From a virus (lineage: Duplodnaviria > Heunggongvirae > Uroviricota > Caudoviricetes): a stretch of 47,629 nt of DNA. A program made the position numbers and the translations under genes. Under the pieces are notes generated by a model, which had not been told where the DNA came from, made no database searches, and saw only the letters and a list, made by a program, of their open reading frames with translations. This document shows positions 24,222 through 37,962 of the stretch, in pieces (the first letter of the stretch is position 1; each line of letters starts with the position of its first letter). The stretch lies in IMG/VR virus record IMGVR_UViG_2687453529_000003. One strand, 5' to 3'.

Positions 24222-25289
24222 ATGAGTCAACATCAATATTATCCACAGCTGAAATGGAAGCCTGCTGAATATGAATCTCTGATGCTTTTAGATCAAACTA
24301 CGCTCTCTGGTTTTACTCCGATCATTACCATTCCAGACATAGACTGGGATTATGAAAACGAATGCTACAAGAAGAGTTTGAGTTCTTACTTATCTGACTT
24401 CGGTATTAACCTTGCGGCATCCTGGAAAGCCAATCGTCCTGTTTTGCTGGATGTTAAATATTTAGATAAACATGGTTCGAGCCGCCATCATCCTCTAGAT
24501 ATGTGTATCCAAGATGCTAGAGTAAATGGTAAGGAAATTATCCCTGTTGTTTCTCCCGCATATTCAACAAACTATATACATGCTGTTCAACGCAACTTAA
24601 TCAATGGGCTCGCTATATCTATCACCCCCCAGACATGGCACCAATTCACAAGTCTGGTTAACCACTTAAATATTCATCCTAGTTTAATTGATGTAATCAT
24701 TGATTTTGGAGATATTCAAAACGCAACTGATAGTTTAAAACAACAAGCATTAAGCATGGTCAACACATTATCAGGCCAAGCTCCGTGGAGAAACTTGATT
24801 TTATCTTCAACCGCATACCCAGCATCACAGGCAGGGATACCGCAACATCAAGTTCATCATATTCCGCGCCATGAATACGATCTTTGGATGCACGTAGTAC
24901 AGAATTTTAGCAATGGAAGAACGCCAAGTTTTAGTGATTATCCCACCGCTAGCTCTACCATTACGAGCGTAGACCCACGCTTCATGTCTCAGTATGTCTC
25001 AGTGAGATATTCGAACGATACCTCATGGATCTTTGTAAAAGGTACCGCAGTTAAAGGAAATGGATGGGGCCAAACTAAAAACTTATGTACTACCCTTGTT
25101 AGTTCGCCAGAGTATCAAGTCTTTGGTTCCAAATTTAGTTGGGGGGATGATTACATTTACCAAAGATCATTAGGCGCTAACAAATCTGGCGGCTCTAAAG
25201 AATGGCGTAAAGTTGCACATACGCACCATATTACGTTAGTCGTGAAACAGCTTTATTGGTTGGCGCAGACTCAGCCTGCCAAGCCTTAA
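24222..25289 (+). CDS. hypothetical 355-aa protein, cargo gene A of a convergent pair
   Basis: long ORF in an AT-rich island with a strong ribosome-binding site; no motif recognised. Confidence 0.6.
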   Translation: MSQHQYYPQLKWKPAEYESLMLLDQTTLSGFTPIITIPDIDWDYENECYKKSLSSYLSDFGINLAASWKANRPVLLDVKYLDKHGSSRHHPLDMCIQDARVNGKEIIPVVSPAYSTNYIHAVQRNLINGLAISITPQTWHQFTSLVNHLNIHPSLIDVIIDFGDIQNATDSLKQQALSMVNTLSGQAPWRNLILSSTAYPASQAGIPQHQVHHIPRHEYDLWMHVVQNFSNGRTPSFSDYPTASSTITSVDPRFMSQYVSVRYSNDTSWIFVKGTAVKGNGWGQTKNLCTTLVSSPEYQVFGSKFSWGDDYIYQRSLGANKSGGSKEWRKVAHTHHITLVVKQLYWLAQTQPAKP

Positions 25290-25851
25290 CTTTCCAGCCT
25301 ACGCGTTTCTTTAAGGCTGTTCTGACTTCAAGCCTGAGATTCGCTATTGGAATATTTTCCGCAATAATATTCCATAACTCAAATCGGGGCTTGCTTTTGA
25401 TTCCTTTGGAATAGCCCCATCGTTCAAGTACGTCGATACATTCATCTTTCCAAAGCAATTGAGCGAGCATCAATGTGTCATGGTTTCGATTAAGCTTTTC
25501 TCCACGCATGTGCTTTATAAGAATGGCGCCTTTTGGCCCAACAGAAACCGTTTTAACGCCCCACCAACCTGGGATTAACTTTAATGCTCCCTCAAGATGT
25601 TTCTCAGCTACGACAAGAGTAACCTTGTCCATTACAGAAGAATAATGCTTGATTTGAAGAGGCAAACGCTCCAAAGAGTCATATTCACTTTTGAGCTCGT
25701 ACCCGTGTATAACACCATTTATTACAGCAATGTCTGCTCTACTGGCGCCAAGGGATATGGAAAATTCATCGACCACAAGGCAGTCTGGATCTAAATGCGA
25801 TTCTTTCAAAAGCTTATGATGCACCGCGAACCTAACATCTTGATCTTTCAT
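25231..25851 (-). CDS. hypothetical 206-aa protein with PD-(D/E)xK nuclease-like motif, cargo gene B
   Basis: ribosome-binding site GGAGAAG before the ATG; N-terminal ...DEFSI...RADIAVINGVIHGYELKSEYD fits a D ... (D/E)-x-K restriction-endonuclease-fold core; 3' end overlaps gene A by 59 bp on the opposite strand. Confidence 0.6.
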   Translation of the reverse strand: MKDQDVRFAVHHKLLKESHLDPDCLVVDEFSISLGASRADIAVINGVIHGYELKSEYDSLERLPLQIKHYSSVMDKVTLVVAEKHLEGALKLIPGWWGVKTVSVGPKGAILIKHMRGEKLNRNHDTLMLAQLLWKDECIDVLERWGYSKGIKSKPRFELWNIIAENIPIANLRLEVRTALKKRVGWKVKAWQAESAPTNKAVSRLT

Positions 25852-27995: not shown

Positions 27996-29849
27996 TTATG
28001 ATGATGCCGGTGCATTTATCTCCAGCACCAGACTTTCTATCTCAACGCCATACGTTGCATTTTTGGTAATATCCGTCAGCGTCAGTGCATTTAGTCCCAC
28101 TGTCAGACTGTCTTTTATGACCTGGAATGCCGGGCCAGCCACTCCATTCAGTTTCGGAGTAACCGTGGCACTGCCGGCGGTGAACACCAGCTCCAGCGTC
28201 TGCCAGTCGTTACTGTAATTCCCGAACTCGCCCAACTTTGTGTTTCCGGCTTTCTTGTGATGCATCAGATTCAGTTTGCCGTCTGTGGTCTGGGTGAAGA
28301 ACGACATCAGGAACGGGTTACCAGTCCCGGTCATCGCCACGACGTCAGGTAACGCTACATCGGTATACAGATAAATTCCCAGACCGAACTGGTTGTTGGT
28401 CAGTGCGCCTGACAGTCGAAACTTACAGCTCAGTCTGCCACCCCGTGTCAGCAGGGAGACTGCGTCATCCACCGGGCGCGTCAGGGACCAGGCTTTATTG
28501 CTCTGCTTGGTGATCTTAAATACACCATCTGACAACTGAATTCCACCATTCTTAATGCTCCAGCCCTGCGCAGCAGCCTCTCCGGCTGTCGGCAGCAGGG
28601 AGATTGTGCGAACGGACGTATCTGCAGACGGACCCGATGGCGTGTCGCCGCCGGGCGAGGGTTTGATTTCCGGTGCCTTACCACTGATGAAGGCTGAGGT
28701 GCGCCCGGCTGCGTTCAGAATAGCGGTTGCCATACGATCGGGAATAATGCCACGACGCGCCCATGAGCTGAAATGCGTCGGGCGATTTGATGATACCCAG
28801 TTTTTGTTCGTTCGGGATGCCGAACCGTAATAACCAGACCCGACAATATCAGGATCTTCTGACGGGTTGTTTGTCGGTGTATTAACTCCGCTACCATCGG
28901 TCATAAAGGGAACAAAATAAATCTGCTGGGATTCTTTACCTTTATATGCACCATATACCACTTCATATTGCGTACCGTGTTCTTGTTTCCACGCGTATGT
29001 CGTGTCGCCACAAATCCAGGGGACTGATGCCGGACTTCCACCGTGACACTGCGCCGCCAGCCCGGCAAGGTCAGCACGGAACTGCTGTACCATTGCAAGA
29101 AATGCTGCTGGCTGCTGGGCGTAACTGGCATTCGTCATATCGAATTCCCCCTGCATCCAGCATATCGCCAGCAAAACGTTTTTCGGGTTTTTCTGCAATG
29201 CTGCCTTCGTGCGGAAAAGCAGATCCTGATATAACGGCTTACCCACTCCCCAGCGAGCCGAATCCTGACTGGCCCCCGTGGACTCGCTGAATGTCCCCTC
29301 CGTGCCCTGGGTGAATGCCGAACCACCACGACAGCATGGTACCAGCAGGATCCCCGCGTTATTAGGGATATACGGAAGCAGTTTTTTGGCAATATGTAAG
29401 CCCTGTCCGACACAGCCGTACTGCCCTTTGCTCAGGTCAGCCCGGGGATGGTTAATCGTACTCATATCCTGAACATCATGCAGACAATGGTCAGCAGGAA
29501 TGATGTCGTTAAATACGCATACTTCACCACCGGGAGTCACTGTGTTACGACGGGCCAGTTGCTTAATGCGCGGATGGGGCGCATCGTATGAATCCGGAAG
29601 CGGAAGCCCTTCACCGTAAGCCATGGCATTGGACTGCCCGGCCAGTACGATGACGTAGTACCACTCCGGCTCAGTTGCACCACTGACGACCACATCACCT
29701 TCTGCTGCAATCGCCTGCATCAGGGTATAAGGGGTTATGGCCACCGGACTACCAAACGGCTGCCAGCCCTCTTTCAGTTTATGTGTCAGCTTTTCCGCAA
29801 GATCTGACGGCGACGCCGCCCTGACAACATCATAGTGTTTAAATGCCAT
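27996..29849 (-). CDS. prophage sialate O-acetylesterase (NanS-p-like; SGNH hydrolase with C-terminal lectin-like domain)
   Basis: about 617 aa; GQSNA SGNH motif; sits upstream of the holin as the nanS-p/yjhS-like genes do in Stx and related lambdoid phages. Confidence 0.65.
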
Positions 29850-30042
29850 GGTTCTTTCCACCATCTGAAAAATGATTCTTTAAAATACCTGACATGTAAT
29901 ACAGAAAAAACACAAAACCATACCTTAATTAAAAACCTCATCATCAAGCAGATATGCATGGATAAACTACAAGACGAGATATAAACCACCCTGCATTTAA
30001 ATAAACAATAAACAACATCAGAAAAATAATTCTGCTCTATGG

Positions 30043-30069
30043 TTTACAATCAAAAATATCATTTATACT
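30043..30069 (+). promoter_or_regulatory. putative promoter for the plus-strand cargo ORF
   Basis: TTTACA, 15-nt spacer, TATACT, about 40 nt upstream of the ATG; AAGGA ribosome-binding site. Confidence 0.35.
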
Positions 30070-30109
30070 TTTCAGAACATCACCAGCAAGGCATAAACAA
30101 GGAAACTAA

Positions 30110-30445
30110 ATGAAGTGGATTGTGATTGATACAGTTATCCAGCCATCATGCGGAATATCTTTTTCAGTCATATGGAGTAAAATAAAATTAATAATCTGGT
30201 ATCAATCGGATGCTTTCTTACCTCCTGAAAGTATATTTACACTGACTCACACAGGCATCATGCTCAATAACAAAGTGCTGCCTGTAACCATTTACAACGT
30301 AGTACCATTCAATAAAACATTCTGGAATTTAATCAAAAACAGCCAGGAATGCCCTACAAATACAGATAACGTATTGAATGAATGCTTTAATAACCGTTGC
30401 ACTCTGCAAATATGTCCTTATGGGCTAAAACAACAAAGTCCATAA
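30110..30445 (+). CDS. hypothetical 111-aa Cys-containing protein, opposite-strand moron in the stx slot
   Basis: AT-rich ORF with ribosome-binding site and putative promoter; followed by a hairpin. Confidence 0.5.
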
Positions 30446-30481
30446 GGAGTTTACTCACATCTGACAAAATCAATATAAACA

Positions 30482-30505
30482 GCCCCTCCGGAGAGGGGCT
30501 GGAGA
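30482..30505. terminator. hairpin between the two convergent cargo ORFs
   Basis: cagcccctc-cggaga-ggggctgg, followed on the minus strand by a T-rich stretch. Confidence 0.4.
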
Positions 30506-30892
30506 GTGGCGCTATGTGCCATTGCATGGTGCCGGGTGCCTCCCGGTGAATTCAGTACCAGCACCTGAATCCGCGATTATCCCATATACCTACTCGCTGA
30601 TTGCCCCTCCGCACAGGGGGATTCACCATGCCAGTTTCTTTTAACAAACTCCCCGCAAACCAGACAACAGTCAACCGCCTGAATTGTGAAGTATTTAAAA
30701 ATTTCTCCCGCTAACTGATACCCGGCTAACAGTCTGGCGTTTTCTTTTTCAGCAACGGGAAAGCAGCAACCACCACACCCGCCACCAGCACACCGTCAGC
30801 CAGCACTGACATTATCCGGCTGCTGCAATGCCATTCACAAAAACAGTAAGCAATCACTTTTTACCGTAACCGGTGATAATCCAGATATGTAT

Positions 30893-31249
30893 CTACCCCA
30901 GATGAGTAATCCGAAGTTCATCCATACCACAGGTCCTGGCTATTCTGTTGTACTCCTGAACAAGAGCAAATAATTCTGAATTAGCCACCATGAACTCATC
31001 GCAAACCCTCTGTATAGCATCACTATTCAGAATAATAACGTCTCTTCCCGAAAGACGATCAGGAGTACAGAACAAAACTGTCAAACGGCTGAAGGCCTTT
31101 GCTCGTTCTGCATTGACTATATCAATACGCTGCCTAAGGATGAAACACCCCGACGCCTCATCAATATTCACTCTACCCACACCATATGAATGATAAATAT
31201 TTAATGCTGAAAAAACCATTAGACCGTATAACAAACTCTCAATCAACAC
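30893..31249 (-). CDS. hypothetical protein of about 110 aa in the stx slot downstream of the tRNAs
   Basis: ORF directly downstream of the tRNA pair; start uncertain (GTG at 31249 or ATG at about 31219). Confidence 0.4.
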   Translation of the reverse strand: MLIESLLYGLMVFSALNIYHSYGVGRVNIDEASGCFILRQRIDIVNAERAKAFSRLTVLFCTPDRLSGRDVIILNSDAIQRVCDEFMVANSELFALVQEYNRIARTCGMDELRITHLG

Positions 31250-31356
31250 TTAACAGAACTTTTATTTTTGACAAACATATAATATTTTCAACAATATCCT
31301 GAGCCAGGTATATTTCAGTATAAGGCTCTGCCGAAAGGAATCTGGAAGAATGAATA

Positions 31357-31433
31357 TGGCGCGCTGTACTGGATTCGAACCAGTAACCGATTGCTTAGAA
31401 GGCAATTGCTCTGTCCGGCTGAGCTAACAACGC
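31357..31433 (-). tRNA. tRNA-Arg (anticodon UCU)
   Basis: cloverleaf-compatible 77-nt sequence with GTTCGAATCC T-arm, anticodon loop cuUCUaa and encoded CCA. Confidence 0.8.
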
Positions 31434-31534
31434 TGAATACCGATAATGGACCGCCATCGGGGACCCGCCCCCGCACCAACAACCCTGTTATCGTGTCGTC
31501 TGCTCTTCCTGATAAGCTAATGGCGGTTTGTGAT

Positions 31535-31610
31535 GGTGGCCCTTGCTGGATTTGAACCAGCGACCTGGCGATTATGAGTCGCTCGCTCTCACCACTGAGC
31601 TAAAGGGCCG
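31535..31610 (-). tRNA. tRNA with CAU anticodon (Ile2/lysidine type, or Met)
   Basis: 76-nt sequence GGCCCTTTAGCTCAGTGGT...ctCATaa...GGTTCAAATCC...CCA, resembling the ileZ-type tRNA of lambdoid late regions. Confidence 0.8.
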
Positions 31611-31658: not shown

Positions 31659-32708
31659 TCAAACGATTAAATCCTGAACTTCCCTGACTGTCTGCTCAAA
31701 ACGTCCGGTCTCCAGTTCAACGCCAATCGCACGACGCCCGAGCGCCAGTGCAGCTTTTACCGTTGAACCTGAGCCCATAAAAAAATCTGCAACCAGGTCA
31801 CCCGGACGACTGCTTGCGCTGATTATCTGCTGCAGCATTTCTGCCGGTTTTTCGCACGGATGTTTCCCGGGATAGAACTGCACCGGTTTATGTGTCCACA
31901 CATCCGTGTACGGCACCTGCGCCGTCACACCAAAATACCGCCGCAGATGCTTATATTCACTCTGCAGCTCCACATACTGCCGGTTCAGTGACGTATACGT
32001 ATCCACCAGCTGGTGGTGGGGCTTTTCCAGTTCACCGCGCTGATGTTTCTCTTCTGCCACCCGGGCAAACAGCGACTGTAATTTCAGATAATCGCTTTCG
32101 TTCGGTAGCTGCCACTGACTGGCACTGAACCAGTGCGACACCATGTTTTTCTTTCCTGTGGCATCTGCAATCTGTTTTGCCGTTATCCCCAGGGCCGCGC
32201 GCGCATCACGAAAGTAAGAAATCAGCGGGGCCATCACATGCTGTTTCAGTGCACTGCCCTTCGCCGCATACCCGGCATCTTTCGGACGATACGGCCCCTG
32301 ATAATGTTCCGCGAACAGAATGCGCTCTGTGGCGGGGAAATACGCCCGCAGGCTTTCCTTGTTGCATCCGTTCCAGCGTCCGGACGGCTTCGCCCAGATA
32401 ATATGGTTCAGCACACTGAAGCGTTCACGCATCATGATTTCGATATCAGATGCCAGGCGATGACCACAGAACAGGTAAAGACTTCCGACAGGTTTCAGCA
32501 CCCGCCAGAACTGCGCCAGACACTGGTCCAGCCACTTCAGGTAATCATCGTCGCCCTTCCACTGGTTATCCCAGCCCTCAGGCTTCACTTTAAAGTACGG
32601 CGGGTCCGTGACTATCAGGTCAACAGAATTTTCGGGTAACGACCGGATAAATTCCAGGCAGTCGGCGTTGATTAACTCACAACTGGATATTTTTACAGTA
32701 TTAAGCAT
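31659..32708 (-). CDS. DNA N6-adenine / N4-cytosine methyltransferase (orphan, beta-class DPPY motif)
   Basis: 349-aa ORF with DPPY catalytic motif and an AdoMet-binding FxGxG-type motif (FFMGSGS) near the C-terminus. Confidence 0.8.
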   Translation of the reverse strand: MLNTVKISSCELINADCLEFIRSLPENSVDLIVTDPPYFKVKPEGWDNQWKGDDDYLKWLDQCLAQFWRVLKPVGSLYLFCGHRLASDIEIMMRERFSVLNHIIWAKPSGRWNGCNKESLRAYFPATERILFAEHYQGPYRPKDAGYAAKGSALKQHVMAPLISYFRDARAALGITAKQIADATGKKNMVSHWFSASQWQLPNESDYLKLQSLFARVAEEKHQRGELEKPHHQLVDTYTSLNRQYVELQSEYKHLRRYFGVTAQVPYTDVWTHKPVQFYPGKHPCEKPAEMLQQIISASSRPGDLVADFFMGSGSTVKAALALGRRAIGVELETGRFEQTVREVQDLIV

Positions 32709-33269: not shown

Positions 33270-33959
33270 TTAATTGACTTTTGCAATATCTCGTCGTGAA
33301 AAAATCGCTTTTTGTTGCGCTCTTATTTTCACGGTGCAAATCACAGATTCTCTATCGAGACTCTTAAAAATATCGCACATCTCACGCCAGTAGTTCGCAT
33401 AATTATGGCTCCAGTTATCAGGCTTAACTCCACACAGTCTGGCAAGCTCCTGTCTCTGGTAGACCTCACACCCGGTAATCCATCCTCTGACATCCTGTGC
33501 CGCCAGCCAGATCAACTTCTTCACGCGCTCCTGCGTTTTCCCTGCAATTTTTCTGGTGCCGTACCGGGTTTTAAATTCATTCCACACCCACTGCGTTATC
33601 GCGATCTGATATTCCCAACAAATACTCCCGCTGTAACACCACAACAACCAGGCTTTATGATGTTCTTCAAGAGACAGAACAGCCCGCCGCCACGATGATG
33701 TCAAAAACTCAACCGGACTGACGAGAGGAATTGACGCCCCCTTCGCCAGCGATTGCTTTCCCGGGATTGGTGGATTATCCCGCGTTATCATTTTTCCAGT
33801 CACTTCATCGCGGTACCGGATTTTTTTACGCCTGTAACGCCCTGTATCAAACATGGCATTCTCCTGCCAGGCCTCAAGCTGCCCTTTTGTTGATCCACTC
33901 AAATCGGCGGTGGCAATCATGAGTTGCTCACGAACAAACTGTAAATACTGGTTATTCAT
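33270..33959 (-). CDS. putative late-gene antiterminator (Q-like, long Q82/QuuQ-type form)
   Basis: 229-aa ORF immediately after rusA and before the late region; assignment by position and size only. Confidence 0.4.
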   Translation of the reverse strand: MNNQYLQFVREQLMIATADLSGSTKGQLEAWQENAMFDTGRYRRKKIRYRDEVTGKMITRDNPPIPGKQSLAKGASIPLVSPVEFLTSSWRRAVLSLEEHHKAWLLWCYSGSICWEYQIAITQWVWNEFKTRYGTRKIAGKTQERVKKLIWLAAQDVRGWITGCEVYQRQELARLCGVKPDNWSHNYANYWREMCDIFKSLDRESVICTVKIRAQQKAIFSRRDIAKVN

Positions 33960-36418: not shown

Positions 36419-36733
36419 TATTCCTCCTACAATCAATGTGCAATTACATTTAAACACACCTCAATTTGGCCGGATATATAAATATCTAAACCAGAAAAAA
36501 TCACTTACATAGCGTTACAAACTCTTTAGTCTAAATATTCATCGTAAAACATTCCCCATACTTATCAGCCCGTTCTGCGCCAGGTAGCTCATTGCCTTAT
36601 CTGGGAATCTGTAATCAGGTTTCCGGATGCTGGTGGATTTTCTAGACTGGCCCCCTGAATCTCCAGACAACCAATATCACTTAAATAAGTGATAGTCTTA
36701 ATACTAGTTTTTAGACTAGTCATTGGAGAGCAG

Positions 36734-37099
36734 ATGATTGATGTCTTAGGACCGGAGAAACGCAGACGGCGTACTACACAGGAAAAGATCGCTATTGTTC
36801 AGCAGAGTTTTGAACCGGGAATGACGGTCTCCCTTGTTGCCCGGCAACACGGTGTGGCAGCCAGCCAGTTATTTCTCTGGCGCAAGCAATACCAGGAGGG
36901 AAGTCTTACTGCTGTGGCCGCAGGAGAGCAGGTCGTTCCTGCCTCTGAACTTGCTGCTGCCATGAAGCAGATTAAAGAACTCCAGCGCCTGCTCGGCAAA
37001 AAAACGATGGAAAATGAACTCCTTAAAGAAGCCGTTGAATACGGGCGTGCAAAAAAGTGGATAGCGCACGCGCCCTTATTGCCCGGGGATGGGGAGTAA
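36734..37099 (+). CDS. insC: IS2 transposase OrfA (InsC)
   Basis: [41 protein letters not shown]... is IS2 InsC. Confidence 0.85.
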
Positions 37100-37962
37100 G
37101 CTTAGTCAGCCGTTGTCTCCGGGTGTCGCGTGCGCAGTTGCACGTAATTCTCAGACGAACCGATGACTGGAAAGATGGTCGCCGCAGCCGTCACTCAGAT
37201 GATACGGATGTGCTTCTCCGTATACACCATGTTATCGGAGAGCTGCCCACGTATGGTTATCGTCGGGTATGGGCGCTGCTTCGCAGACAGGCCGAACTTG
37301 ATGGTATGCCTGCGATCAATGCCAAACGTGTTTACCGGATCATGCGACAGAATGCGCTGTTGCTTGAGCGAAAAACCGCTGTACCGCCATCGAAACGGGC
37401 ACATACTGGCAAAGTGGCCGTGAAAGAAAGCAATCAACGATGGTGCTCTGACGGGTTCGAGTTCCGCTGTGATAACGGAGAAAAACTGCGAGTCACGTTC
37501 GCGCTGGACTGCTGTGACCGTGAGGCACTGCACTGGGCAGTCACTACGGGCGGCTTCGACAGTGAAACAGTACAGGACGTCATGCTGGGAGCGGTGGAAC
37601 GCCGCTTCGGCAACGAGCTTCCGGCGTCTCCAGTAGAGTGGCTGACGGATAATGGTTCATGCTACCGGGCTAATGAAACACGGCAGTTTGCCCGGATGTT
37701 GGGGCTTGAACCGAAGAACACGGCGGTGCGGAGTCCGGAGAGTAACGGCATAGCAGAGAGCTTCGTGAAAACGATAAAGCGTGACTACATCAGTATCATG
37801 CCTAAACCAGACGGGTTAACGGCAGCAAAGAACCTTGCAGAGGCGTTCGAGCATTATAACGAATGGCATCCGCATAGTGCACTGGGTTATCGCTCGCCAC
37901 GGGAATATCTGCGGCAGCAGGCCAGTAATGGGTTAAGTGATAACAGGTGTCTGGAAATATAG
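37057..37962 (+). CDS. insD: IS2 transposase OrfB (InsD, DDE integrase domain)
   Basis: 301-aa ORF overlapping insC in the -1 frame; IS2 InsD sequence. Confidence 0.85.

What the first reader, a model, noticed from the sequence alone, without database searches (positions are those of the whole stretch)
29865..31356. Unknown cargo in the stx slot: two convergent small ORFs between the late-region tRNAs and nanS-p
The late region carries a tRNA pair (CAU and Arg-UCU), the slot where Stx phages place stxAB. No toxin is present. Instead the 1.5-kb AT-rich segment holds a minus-strand ORF of about 110 aa directly downstream of the tRNAs (30893-31249) and an opposite-strand 111-aa Cys-containing ORF (30110-30445) with its own promoter-like sequence and ribosome-binding site, separated by about 450 bp of non-coding DNA with hairpins. 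Genes in this slot are expressed on induction and are frequently virulence or fitness factors.
Basis: partly seen in the sequence, partly recalled or inferred. Interest (0 to 1): 0.55.

Follow-up and report, generated by a model that had tools for sequence, protein, structure and literature searches.

The report
Known iraL/STnc100 moron cluster in stx slot
The toxin-free "stx slot" of this E. coli prophage mostly holds known cargo: the RpoS-stabilising anti-adaptor gene iraL, the prophage small RNA STnc100 and a truncated tciB remnant, plus one conserved 92-codon gene of unknown function that RefSeq does not annotate.

Summary

- **iraL:** the plus-strand 111-aa ORF (30110-30445) is 100% identical to CFT073 IraL, a characterised RssB anti-adaptor that stabilises RpoS. 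Its 5' UTR matches the published RACE-mapped iraL mRNA start. It runs opposite to late transcription, so it behaves as a lysogen-expressed moron, not an induction-expressed late gene.
- **The spacer is occupied:** it holds a full-length STnc100 small RNA (30471-30660, minus, 132 bits against a gathering score of 47) ending in the GC hairpin, and a 43-aa DUF3927/TciB-like ORF (30726-30857, minus) that is only a 3' remnant.
- **The minus-strand ORF is a real gene:** it is probably 92 aa (GTG at 31171). Seven diverged versions keep 91-95 codons, with dN/dS 0.10-0.42 in the pairs that can be estimated. It occurs in 1311 of 5426 complete E. coli genomes and was unannotated in 39 of 40 sampled rows. 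Its predicted helix/beta-hairpin/helix fold gives no functional assignment.
- **The slot is correct:** STnc100 lies just downstream of stxB in Stx phages.

The whole segment is 97% identical to the CFT073 potB prophage. It is ordinary and largely already known; only the 92-aa gene is open.

The parts
31534..31609 (-). tRNA with CAU anticodon. ARAGORN calls it Met. PGAP calls it tRNA-Ile, i.e. the Ile2/ileZ-type tRNA of lambdoid late regions.
31357..31433 (-). tRNA-Arg (UCU)
30893..31171 (-). orf92, a conserved gene of unknown function that RefSeq does not annotate (phrog_2873). The probable start is GTG at 31171. The ORF stays open upstream to 31249 (118 aa), with an ATG at 31219 (108 aa). Predicted fold: helix 3-34, beta-hairpin 39-46, helix 50-81.
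   Evidence: ORF. PHROG 235 bits. Homologues of 91-95 aa in E. coli, Citrobacter, Salmonella and plasmids. dN/dS 0.10-0.42, no frame-breaking indels, excess of third-position changes. The upstream extension is out of frame in allele 2. AlphaFold2 pLDDT 91. No RefSeq annotation under the match in 39 of 40 sampled rows.
30726..30857 (-). 43-aa DUF3927/TciB-like ORF. It is a 3' remnant: only the second transmembrane segment is homologous to full-length TciB (50-54 aa). Homology starts at about 30825. The tciA (TerB-like) gene found upstream in relatives is missing.
   Evidence: Pfam PF13064 92.7 bits. phrog_1470. Alignment to JLK-2012, E. coli and Citrobacter TciB, and the blastn junction. Gene orders in relatives.
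30471..30660 (-). STnc100-family small RNA gene (Rfam RF02076; the PasD/EcOnc27 group), matched over the full model. It ends in the terminator hairpin at 30480-30501 followed by a U-rich tail.
   Evidence: cmscan 132.4 bits against gathering score 47, model positions 1-206 of 206. Terminator-like site. MFE -74.6 kcal/mol, z = -2.26. Literature: PMC12370729, PMC5331693, PMC12711010, bioRxiv 10.64898/2026.05.13.724894.
30043..30109 (+). iraL promoter and 5' UTR. My reading: -35-like TTTACA at 30043-30048, -10 TATACT at 30064-30069, transcription start about 30077, Shine-Dalgarno AGGA at 30100-30103.
   Evidence: Sequence. The RACE-mapped iraL 5' end ACATCACCAGCAAGGCATAAACAAGGAAACCA (PMC4045071) matches 30077-30108 at 30 of 32 positions.
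30110..30445 (+). iraL, an RssB anti-adaptor of the IraM/IraL/RssC family, 111 aa
   Evidence: NCBIfam NF007393 162 bits (cut-off 121). PDB 8twd IraM, E = 9e-32. 100% identical to CFT073 IraL and 59.5% to K-12 IraM.
27996..29849 (-). nanS-p-type sialate O-acetylesterase (DUF1737 + SASA + DUF6645), the downstream boundary of the slot

Best explanation
The tRNA-to-esterase interval is a recombinational mosaic of four accessory elements in the late-region hot spot of a lambdoid prophage. The prophage is a close relative of the CFT073 potB prophage.

1. **iraL** is a self-contained moron. It is transcribed from its own sigma-70 promoter in the lysogen, in the opposite direction to the late operon. 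Its product binds the N-terminal domain of the adaptor RssB, blocks delivery of RpoS to ClpXP, and so raises RpoS in growing cells. This is shown for the identical CFT073 protein and inferred here.
2. **STnc100** is an sRNA on the late strand with its own terminator. The published support for Hfq binding concerns EcOnc27/sRNA103, which only partly overlaps STnc100. It is the same element that sits about 75 nt downstream of stx2B in Stx phages. It is also the segment shared by the two half-matches seen in sequenced phages, so it probably acts as the homology linker through which cargo on either side is exchanged (inferred).
3. **The tciB ORF** is a truncated leftover of a tciA-tciB cassette.
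4. **orf92** is a real protein-coding gene of about 92 aa on the late strand, so it is probably transcribed by Q-antiterminated read-through from pR'. It is predicted to form an antiparallel coiled-coil hairpin with a beta-hairpin tip, a shape suited to oligomerisation or protein binding. Its function is unknown.

On induction, late transcription should run antisense through iraL (inferred).
For: **iraL**
- NCBIfam IraM family, above the curated cut-off.
- Matches the solved IraM N-terminal domain, E = 9e-32.
- Protein identical to CFT073 WP_000871291.1. The 1.8-kb segment is 97.1% identical to the CFT073 potB prophage.
- The 5' UTR matches the published RACE start.
- Function and RssB N-domain binding are from PMC4045071.

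**STnc100**
- 132 bits, full length, with a terminator.
- In Shigella phage 75/02 Stx the matching DNA lies between stxB and the esterase. Published copies lie 75 nt downstream of stx2.
- Copies are transcribed in EDL933, one confirmed by Northern blot. The Hfq-binding sRNA EcOnc27 partly overlaps it.
- Linker role: mEp460 matches query positions 659-1492 and the vB_EcoS phages match 1-825. The two overlap only across window 30523-30689.

**tciB remnant:**

**orf92**
- Homologues of 91-95 aa down to 33% identity.
- dN/dS 0.10-0.42 in the pairs that can be estimated, and all seven versions are intact.
- Intact in CFT073 and in phage mEp460.
- In the four prophage contexts examined it lies on the late strand between Q and the holin.
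- pLDDT 91.
Against: - No expression data exist for this window. The orf92 start codon is inferred, its Shine-Dalgarno sequence (GGTG/GGGT) is weak, and PGAP does not call the gene.
- Fold searches gave only generic coiled-coil matches, so no function can be attached.
- The iraL -35/-10 spacing as I read it is 15 nt, which is short. The consensus scan did not list this promoter.
- The hairpin at 30480-30501 has a U-tract only on the minus strand, so how iraL transcripts terminate is unclear.
- STnc100's targets in this background are unknown.
Confidence: 0.85

Rival explanations
1. One reading: the slot carries two unknown small proteins that are expressed on prophage induction and act as new virulence or fitness factors, replacing Stx.
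For: The slot position is right. Both ORFs are conserved and coding. orf92 really is uncharacterised and lies on the late strand.
Against: The plus-strand ORF is the characterised IraL (PMC4045071). It is antisense to the late operon, and its own transcription start was mapped in uninduced log-phase cells. The segment occurs at 80% coverage or more in 862 of 5426 complete E. coli genomes, from many sources.
Confidence: 0.1
2. The minus-strand ORF (30893-31249) is a chance ORF in a spacer, not a gene, as its absence from PGAP and mEp460 annotations would suggest.
For: It is not annotated in identical RefSeq genomes or in mEp460. It has a GTG start with a weak Shine-Dalgarno sequence. It has no Pfam or NCBIfam family.
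Against: Seven versions, diverged to 33-64% amino-acid identity, from E. coli, Citrobacter, Salmonella, plasmids and a metagenome-assembled genome, all keep 91-95 codons. dN/dS is 0.10-0.42. Third-position changes are in excess (24/21/42). The alternative sense frames and two of the three antisense frames give ratios near 1; the antisense frame that also scores low (0.23) contains stop codons. The Citrobacter copy has a good AAGGGA Shine-Dalgarno sequence and an ATG start. AlphaFold2 gives pLDDT 91 from only 12 sequences.
Confidence: 0.08
3. orf92 is the first gene of a three-gene orf92-tciA-tciB cassette, a membrane-associated exclusion or resistance module. In this window it is a non-functional orphan, because tciA and half of tciB were deleted.
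For: The order orf92, then TerB-like (tciA), then DUF3927 (tciB), then holin is seen in an E. coli allele and in Citrobacter at only 40-64% protein identity. The window keeps orf92 directly followed by the tciB 3' remnant.
Against: JLK-2012 has tciA-tciB without orf92. The Salmonella, allele-2 and plasmid copies of orf92 show no adjacent TerB or DUF3927 genes among those called in the loci. The orphan form is kept intact at 95% identity or more in about 1184 genomes. tblastn against 50,697 phage records, which should include P1-like phages carrying tciA/B/C, found only mEp460.
Confidence: 0.15

Closest known systems
IraL of uropathogenic E. coli CFT073 (Hryckowian et al. 2014, PMC4045071)
   Same: The 111-aa protein is identical (WP_000871291.1). 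The 5' UTR and transcription start are the same. So is the neighbourhood: late tRNAs, DUF3927, pseudo-ORF, iraL, DUF1737/esterase, holin. The DNA is 97% identical over 1.8 kb.
   Different: The window has two tRNAs instead of three, a DNA methylase instead of IS200 after Q, and an intact nanS-p where CFT073 has only a DUF1737 fragment.
IraM (YcgW/ElbA) of E. coli K-12, next to the e14 prophage; PDB 8TWD
   Same: Same family (NF007393). The N-terminal 78 residues align at E = 9e-32, and the C-terminal Cys-rich motif ...QECP...C...C...ICPYGLK is conserved.
   Different: Only 59.5% identical. According to PMC4045071, IraM is used under different conditions and contacts both RssB domains, whereas IraL contacts only the N-terminal domain.
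STnc100 (Rfam RF02076), the PasD / EcOnc27 (sRNA103) prophage sRNAs
   Same: Full-length covariance-model match, same terminator, and same position immediately upstream of the sialate esterase and downstream of the stx position.
   Different: Here it follows a tciB remnant, not stxB. The proposed stxB-complementary role (PMC12370729) cannot apply in a toxin-free prophage. Its targets are unknown.
tciA-tciB cassette (named after phage P1 genes; annotated in Escherichia phage JLK-2012)
   Same: The C-terminal transmembrane segment SSRIMSVLADGVLVAGVVV.AFPLLKKK is nearly identical to JLK-2012 TciB. It sits in the same slot between the late tRNAs and yjhS/nanS-p.
   Different: The first transmembrane segment and the whole of tciA are missing. 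The first 11 residues are unrelated sequence.
stxAB locus of Stx-converting phages (e.g. Shigella phage 75/02 Stx)
   Same: Same gene order: Q, (tRNAs), cargo, STnc100-like segment, esterase, holin.
   Different: There are no toxin genes. The cargo is orf92 plus the tciB remnant, and an extra opposite-strand moron (iraL) is inserted between the sRNA and the esterase.
Prefoldin beta subunit fold (e.g. PDB 2ZDI, 1FXK)

Membership tests
IraM/IraL/RssC anti-adaptor family | Sequence match to the curated family model above its cut-off | tested here: met
   NF007393, 162 bits against a cut-off of 121, covering residues 1-110. phrog_4407, 244 bits.
IraM/IraL/RssC anti-adaptor family | Identity to an experimentally characterised member (IraL of CFT073), as distinct from IraM | tested here: met
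   100% identical to the CFT073 protein and 59.5% identical to K-12 IraM. The paper reports 58.9% between IraL and IraM.
IraM/IraL/RssC anti-adaptor family | iraL-type promoter and 5' UTR (RACE-mapped transcription start) | tested here: met
   30 of 32 positions match the published 5' end. The transcription start falls at about 30077, 7 nt after TATACT.
IraM/IraL/RssC anti-adaptor family | Binds RssB and stabilises RpoS | not testable with these tools
   Shown for the identical CFT073 protein in PMC4045071; inferred here.
STnc100 sRNA (Rfam RF02076) | Covariance-model score at or above the gathering threshold, over the full model | tested here: met
   132.4 bits against 47, model positions 1-206 of 206, E = 6.6e-31.
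STnc100 sRNA (Rfam RF02076) | Intrinsic terminator at the 3' end | tested here: met
   A 9-bp stem with 7 GC pairs at 30501-30480, followed by TTTATATT on the minus strand.
STnc100 sRNA (Rfam RF02076) | Expressed as a discrete, Hfq-associated transcript | not testable with these tools
   Published for EHEC copies only.
DUF3927 / TciB-like | Pfam match above the gathering score | tested here: met
   PF13064, 92.7 bits against 25.
DUF3927 / TciB-like | Full-length two-segment membrane protein of 50-54 aa, preceded by tciA | tested here: not met
   Only the second hydrophobic segment is homologous. The N-terminus is unrelated and tciA is absent.
Stx-phage toxin slot | Synteny: Q, tRNAs, cargo, STnc100 segment, nanS-p, holin | tested here: met
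Stx-phage toxin slot | Presence of stxA/stxB | tested here: not met
   No ORF in 29865-31356 other than those listed. None of the five ORFs searched, the main ORFs of the interval, matched a toxin family.
phrog_2873 (orf92 family, unknown function) | Profile match and conserved length | tested here: met
   235 bits over residues 11-118. Homologues are 91-95 aa.
Prefoldin | Significant structural or sequence similarity, and hetero-hexamer partners | tested here: not met

The most novel reading that the evidence does not exclude
orf92 is present in about a quarter of complete E. coli genomes and is absent from RefSeq annotation. It may be a functional small protein of a new family that acts on a host target, either in the lysogen or early in lysis. 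Possibilities include an oligomeric coiled-coil inhibitor or adaptor, or a working partner of the TerB-like TciA/TciB module. It could contribute a phenotype that has so far been attributed to the iraL locus or to the prophage as a whole.
Probability: 0.15. Interest if true: 0.5.

Novelty: already known. Interest (0 to 1): 0.22.

Why it matters
- **Main value is corrective.** A toxin-free "stx slot" that looked like mystery cargo is the well-distributed iraL locus plus the STnc100 sRNA.
- **iraL matters biologically.** This prophage raises RpoS in growing ExPEC-type strains. That is already published.
- **STnc100 as a linker.** The STnc100 gene is the only segment shared by the two half-modules seen in sequenced phages. 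This suggests the sRNA gene doubles as the recombination linker that lets stx, tciAB, orf92, AraC-like regulators and iraL be swapped in and out of the slot.
- **An annotation gap.** A conserved 92-codon gene under purifying selection is missing from RefSeq annotation in the sampled genomes, out of more than a thousand complete genomes that carry it. This is worth reporting as a gap and is a cheap target for functional work.

Tried and rejected
- **orf92 sequence searches.** Pfam, NCBIfam and PADLOC gave nothing usable, and a PDB sequence search gave no hit at E <= 10.
- **Exhaustive HMMER search of 1.84 billion representatives.** It found only about a dozen true relatives, all 91-95 aa. The three long hits (P0026, P0034, P0036) are repeat-inflated artefacts.
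- **Possible link to P1 tciC.** tblastn of orf92 against 50,697 phage records hit only mEp460, so there is no detectable relation to other annotated phage genes.
- **The search for related loci in species-representative genomes.** The first attempt failed because the alignment had no conserved stretch. The second returned a single locus. The family is too narrow for that approach.
- **The 118-aa and 108-aa forms of the minus-strand ORF.** I rejected these as the conserved protein. The upstream extension is out of frame, with a stop six codons before the GTG, in allele 2, and the homologues in the alignment all begin within a few residues of that point.
- **The PGAP pseudo-ORF at 30516-30641 (+) and the 37-aa ORF at 30601-30714 (+).** Both lie antisense to STnc100. 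I treated them as annotation artefacts rather than genes.
- **Consensus promoter scan.** It found no more sites than shuffled sequence (6 against 4.6 +/- 2.5), so I drew no promoter claims from it.

Full report
**Orientation.** In this window the prophage late operon runs on the minus strand. In order it contains:
- Q (33270-33959)
- a small ORF
- a DNA methyltransferase (31659-32708)
- tRNA-CAU (31534-31609)
- tRNA-Arg-UCU (31357-31433)
- the interval in question
- a SASA/nanS-p esterase (27996-29849/29864)
- the holin and lysis genes

**Checking the observation.** Both ORFs exist as described and are convergent. No toxin gene is present. Low GC holds for the two ends but not the middle. GC is 0.30-0.375 over about 29900-30499 and 0.34-0.43 over 30800-31399, against about 0.50 for 30400-30800. 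The interval is the true equivalent of the stx position. Window 30523-30631 is identical to DNA lying between stxB and the esterase gene of Shigella phage 75/02 Stx. Published work places the same element 75 nt downstream of the stx2 operon (PMC12370729).

**The plus-strand ORF is iraL.**
- It scores 162 bits on the NCBIfam IraM model, where the cut-off is 121.
- It matches the solved IraM N-terminal domain 8TWD at E = 9e-32.
- In a genome 100% identical over the interval, PGAP assigns WP_000871291.1. The same accession is annotated in the potB prophage of CFT073.
- Direct comparison shows the window protein is 100% identical to the CFT073 protein and 59.5% identical to K-12 IraM. This matches the 58.9% IraL/IraM figure in Hryckowian et al. 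2014 (PMC4045071).
- That paper mapped the iraL mRNA 5' end by RACE as ACATCACCAGCAAGGCATAAACAAGGAAACCA. Window 30077-30108 matches 30 of 32 positions.
- This puts the transcription start 33 nt before the ATG, 7 nt after a TATACT hexamer (30064-30069), with AGGA 6 nt before the start codon.

iraL points against the late operon and has its own promoter. It is therefore a lysogen-expressed moron, not a gene "expressed on induction". On induction, Q-modified polymerase would be expected to read antisense through it. That step is my inference.

**The "non-coding spacer" is not empty.**
- cmscan finds a full-length STnc100 sRNA at 30471-30660 on the minus strand: 132.4 bits against a gathering score of 47, covering model positions 1-206 of 206.
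These include the CCCCCUGUGCGGAGGGG stem-loop and the terminal CAGCCCCUC/GAGGGGCUG stem at 30480-30501, which is followed by a U-rich tail on the minus strand.
- STnc100 copies are transcribed in EDL933, and one was verified by Northern blot (PMC5331693).
- The Hfq-binding sRNA EcOnc27/sRNA103 downstream of stx2B partly overlaps it (PMC12711010).
- A 2026 preprint groups it with the PasD sRNAs and notes their association with the esterase gene.
- Upstream of the sRNA, 30726-30857 (minus) encodes a 43-aa DUF3927 protein: Pfam 92.7 bits, and the PHROG family "TciB-like".
- Alignment with full-length TciB from JLK-2012, another E. coli prophage and Citrobacter shows that only the second hydrophobic segment is homologous. 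Nucleotide homology begins at about 30825, and the TerB-like tciA gene normally upstream is missing. It is a 3' remnant.
- The PGAP pseudo-ORF at 30516-30641 (+) lies antisense to the sRNA and is probably an artefact.

**The minus-strand ORF is a real gene, probably of 92 aa.**
- It hits only phrog_2873, a family of unknown function. PGAP does not annotate it, and neither does the mEp460 record.
- Database searches found a narrow enterobacterial family from E. coli/Shigella, Citrobacter, Salmonella and ETEC-type plasmids. Members are 91-95 aa and go down to 33% identity.
- Between the window and a 62%-identical allele there are no indels over 276 nt at 68% nucleotide identity. Differences by codon position are 24/21/42, and dN/dS is 0.27. 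The other sense frames give ratios near 1.
- Across seven versions, all are intact, and the unsaturated pairs give dN/dS of 0.10-0.42.
- The upstream extension that makes the ORF 108 or 118 aa in this window is out of frame, with an in-frame stop six codons before the GTG, in the second allele. The homologues in the alignment begin within a few residues of that point, and the Citrobacter copy has an AAGGGA Shine-Dalgarno sequence and an ATG there. I therefore place the start at GTG 31171.
- The ORF is intact in CFT073 and in the isolated phage mEp460.
- It occurs in 1311 of 5426 complete E. coli genomes. Of these, 1184 carry it at 95% identity or more. There was no feature under the match in 39 of the 40 sampled rows.
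- In the four prophage contexts examined it lies on the late strand between Q and the holin. In one E. coli allele and in Citrobacter it is followed by TerB-like tciA and DUF3927 tciB. In two E. coli alleles it directly follows an AraC-family regulator. A 34%-identical copy sits on plasmids next to a fimbrial operon.

**Structure and function of orf92.** AlphaFold2 on a 12-sequence alignment gives pLDDT 91.2 and pTM 0.76. The model has helix 3-34, a beta-hairpin at 39-46 and helix 50-81. Fold searches were uninformative:

| Search | Result |
|---|---|
| Foldseek vs PDB | best hits prefoldin beta subunits, E = 0.03-0.17; none at E <= 0.001 |
| Foldseek vs BFVD | only uncharacterised proteins |

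I therefore claim only a coiled-coil hairpin that is likely to oligomerise or bind a partner. No enzymatic or defence family matched.

**How the pieces fit.**
- The 1.8-kb segment including the tRNAs is 97.1% identical to CFT073.
- About 60% of the whole window aligns to the CFT073 potB prophage at 90-99% identity.
- 862 complete genomes carry at least 80% of the interval.
- In sequenced phages the two halves occur separately. mEp460 has orf92, the tciB remnant and STnc100 (query positions 659-1492). Several vB_EcoS phages have STnc100 and iraL (query positions 1-825). The overlap is window 30523-30689, inside STnc100.
- This pattern suggests the conserved sRNA gene serves as the homology patch through which late-region cargo is shuffled. 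That is inference from the match coordinates.
- As a side observation, 6 of 13 Ile codons in iraL are AUA, and 5 of 10 Arg codons in orf92 are AGA or AGG. By standard decoding rules (my inference, not tested), the adjacent Ile2 (CAU) tRNA would read AUA and the Arg (UCU) tRNA AGA.

**Verdict.** The segment is a known, widespread locus made of iraL, STnc100 and a tciB remnant. The only open item is a conserved, unannotated 92-codon gene of unknown function. Interest is low, and the locus is already known.

Noticed in passing
window 24222-25289 (+) and 25231-25851 (-): An overlapping, convergent gene pair lies between the lysis cassette and the packaging genes. One is a Pfam Beta_protein (189 bits; PADLOC PD-Lambda-2_C, 110 bits). 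The other is an sce7726-family protein (PADLOC 'cll', 107 bits). This is a candidate prophage-borne anti-phage defence pair in a second moron hot spot.
   Followed up: partly
window 30893-31171 (-), and 1311 complete E. coli genomes: orf92 is systematically missing from RefSeq/PGAP annotation. There was no feature under the match in 39 of 40 sampled rows, despite clear purifying selection.
   Followed up: yes
window 30523-30689: The STnc100 gene is the only segment shared by the two half-matches in sequenced phages (mEp460 on one side, the vB_EcoS-640R1 group on the other). It looks like the recombination linker between late-region cargo modules.
   Followed up: partly
window 30445-30501: The iraL stop codon is only 35 nt from the STnc100 terminator hairpin, which has a U-tract only on the minus strand. 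iraL transcripts may therefore run on antisense into STnc100, allowing mutual interference between the two RNAs.
   Followed up: no
L008 3969-4694, L021 4142-4870, L004 2933-3658: In other E. coli prophages, an approximately 241-aa AraC-family (HTH_18) regulator occupies the same slot directly upstream of orf92 alleles. From memory it resembles the prophage regulators PatE and PsrA/B, but I did not test this.
   Followed up: no
window 30110-30445 and 31357-31609: iraL uses the rare AUA codon for 6 of its 13 isoleucines, and orf92 uses AGA or AGG for 5 of its 10 arginines. By standard decoding rules (inference, not tested), the adjacent Ile2 (CAU) tRNA would read AUA and the Arg (UCU) tRNA AGA.
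   Followed up: partly
window ~36689-37962 (+): An IS3-family insertion sequence (two overlapping ORFs) interrupts the nin/hok region of the prophage. The CFT073 relative instead carries an IS200 after Q.
   Followed up: no
window 28138-29623, compared with L019 (CFT073): nanS-p is intact here. In CFT073 the central ~1.5 kb is deleted, leaving only a DUF1737 fragment.
   Followed up: partly
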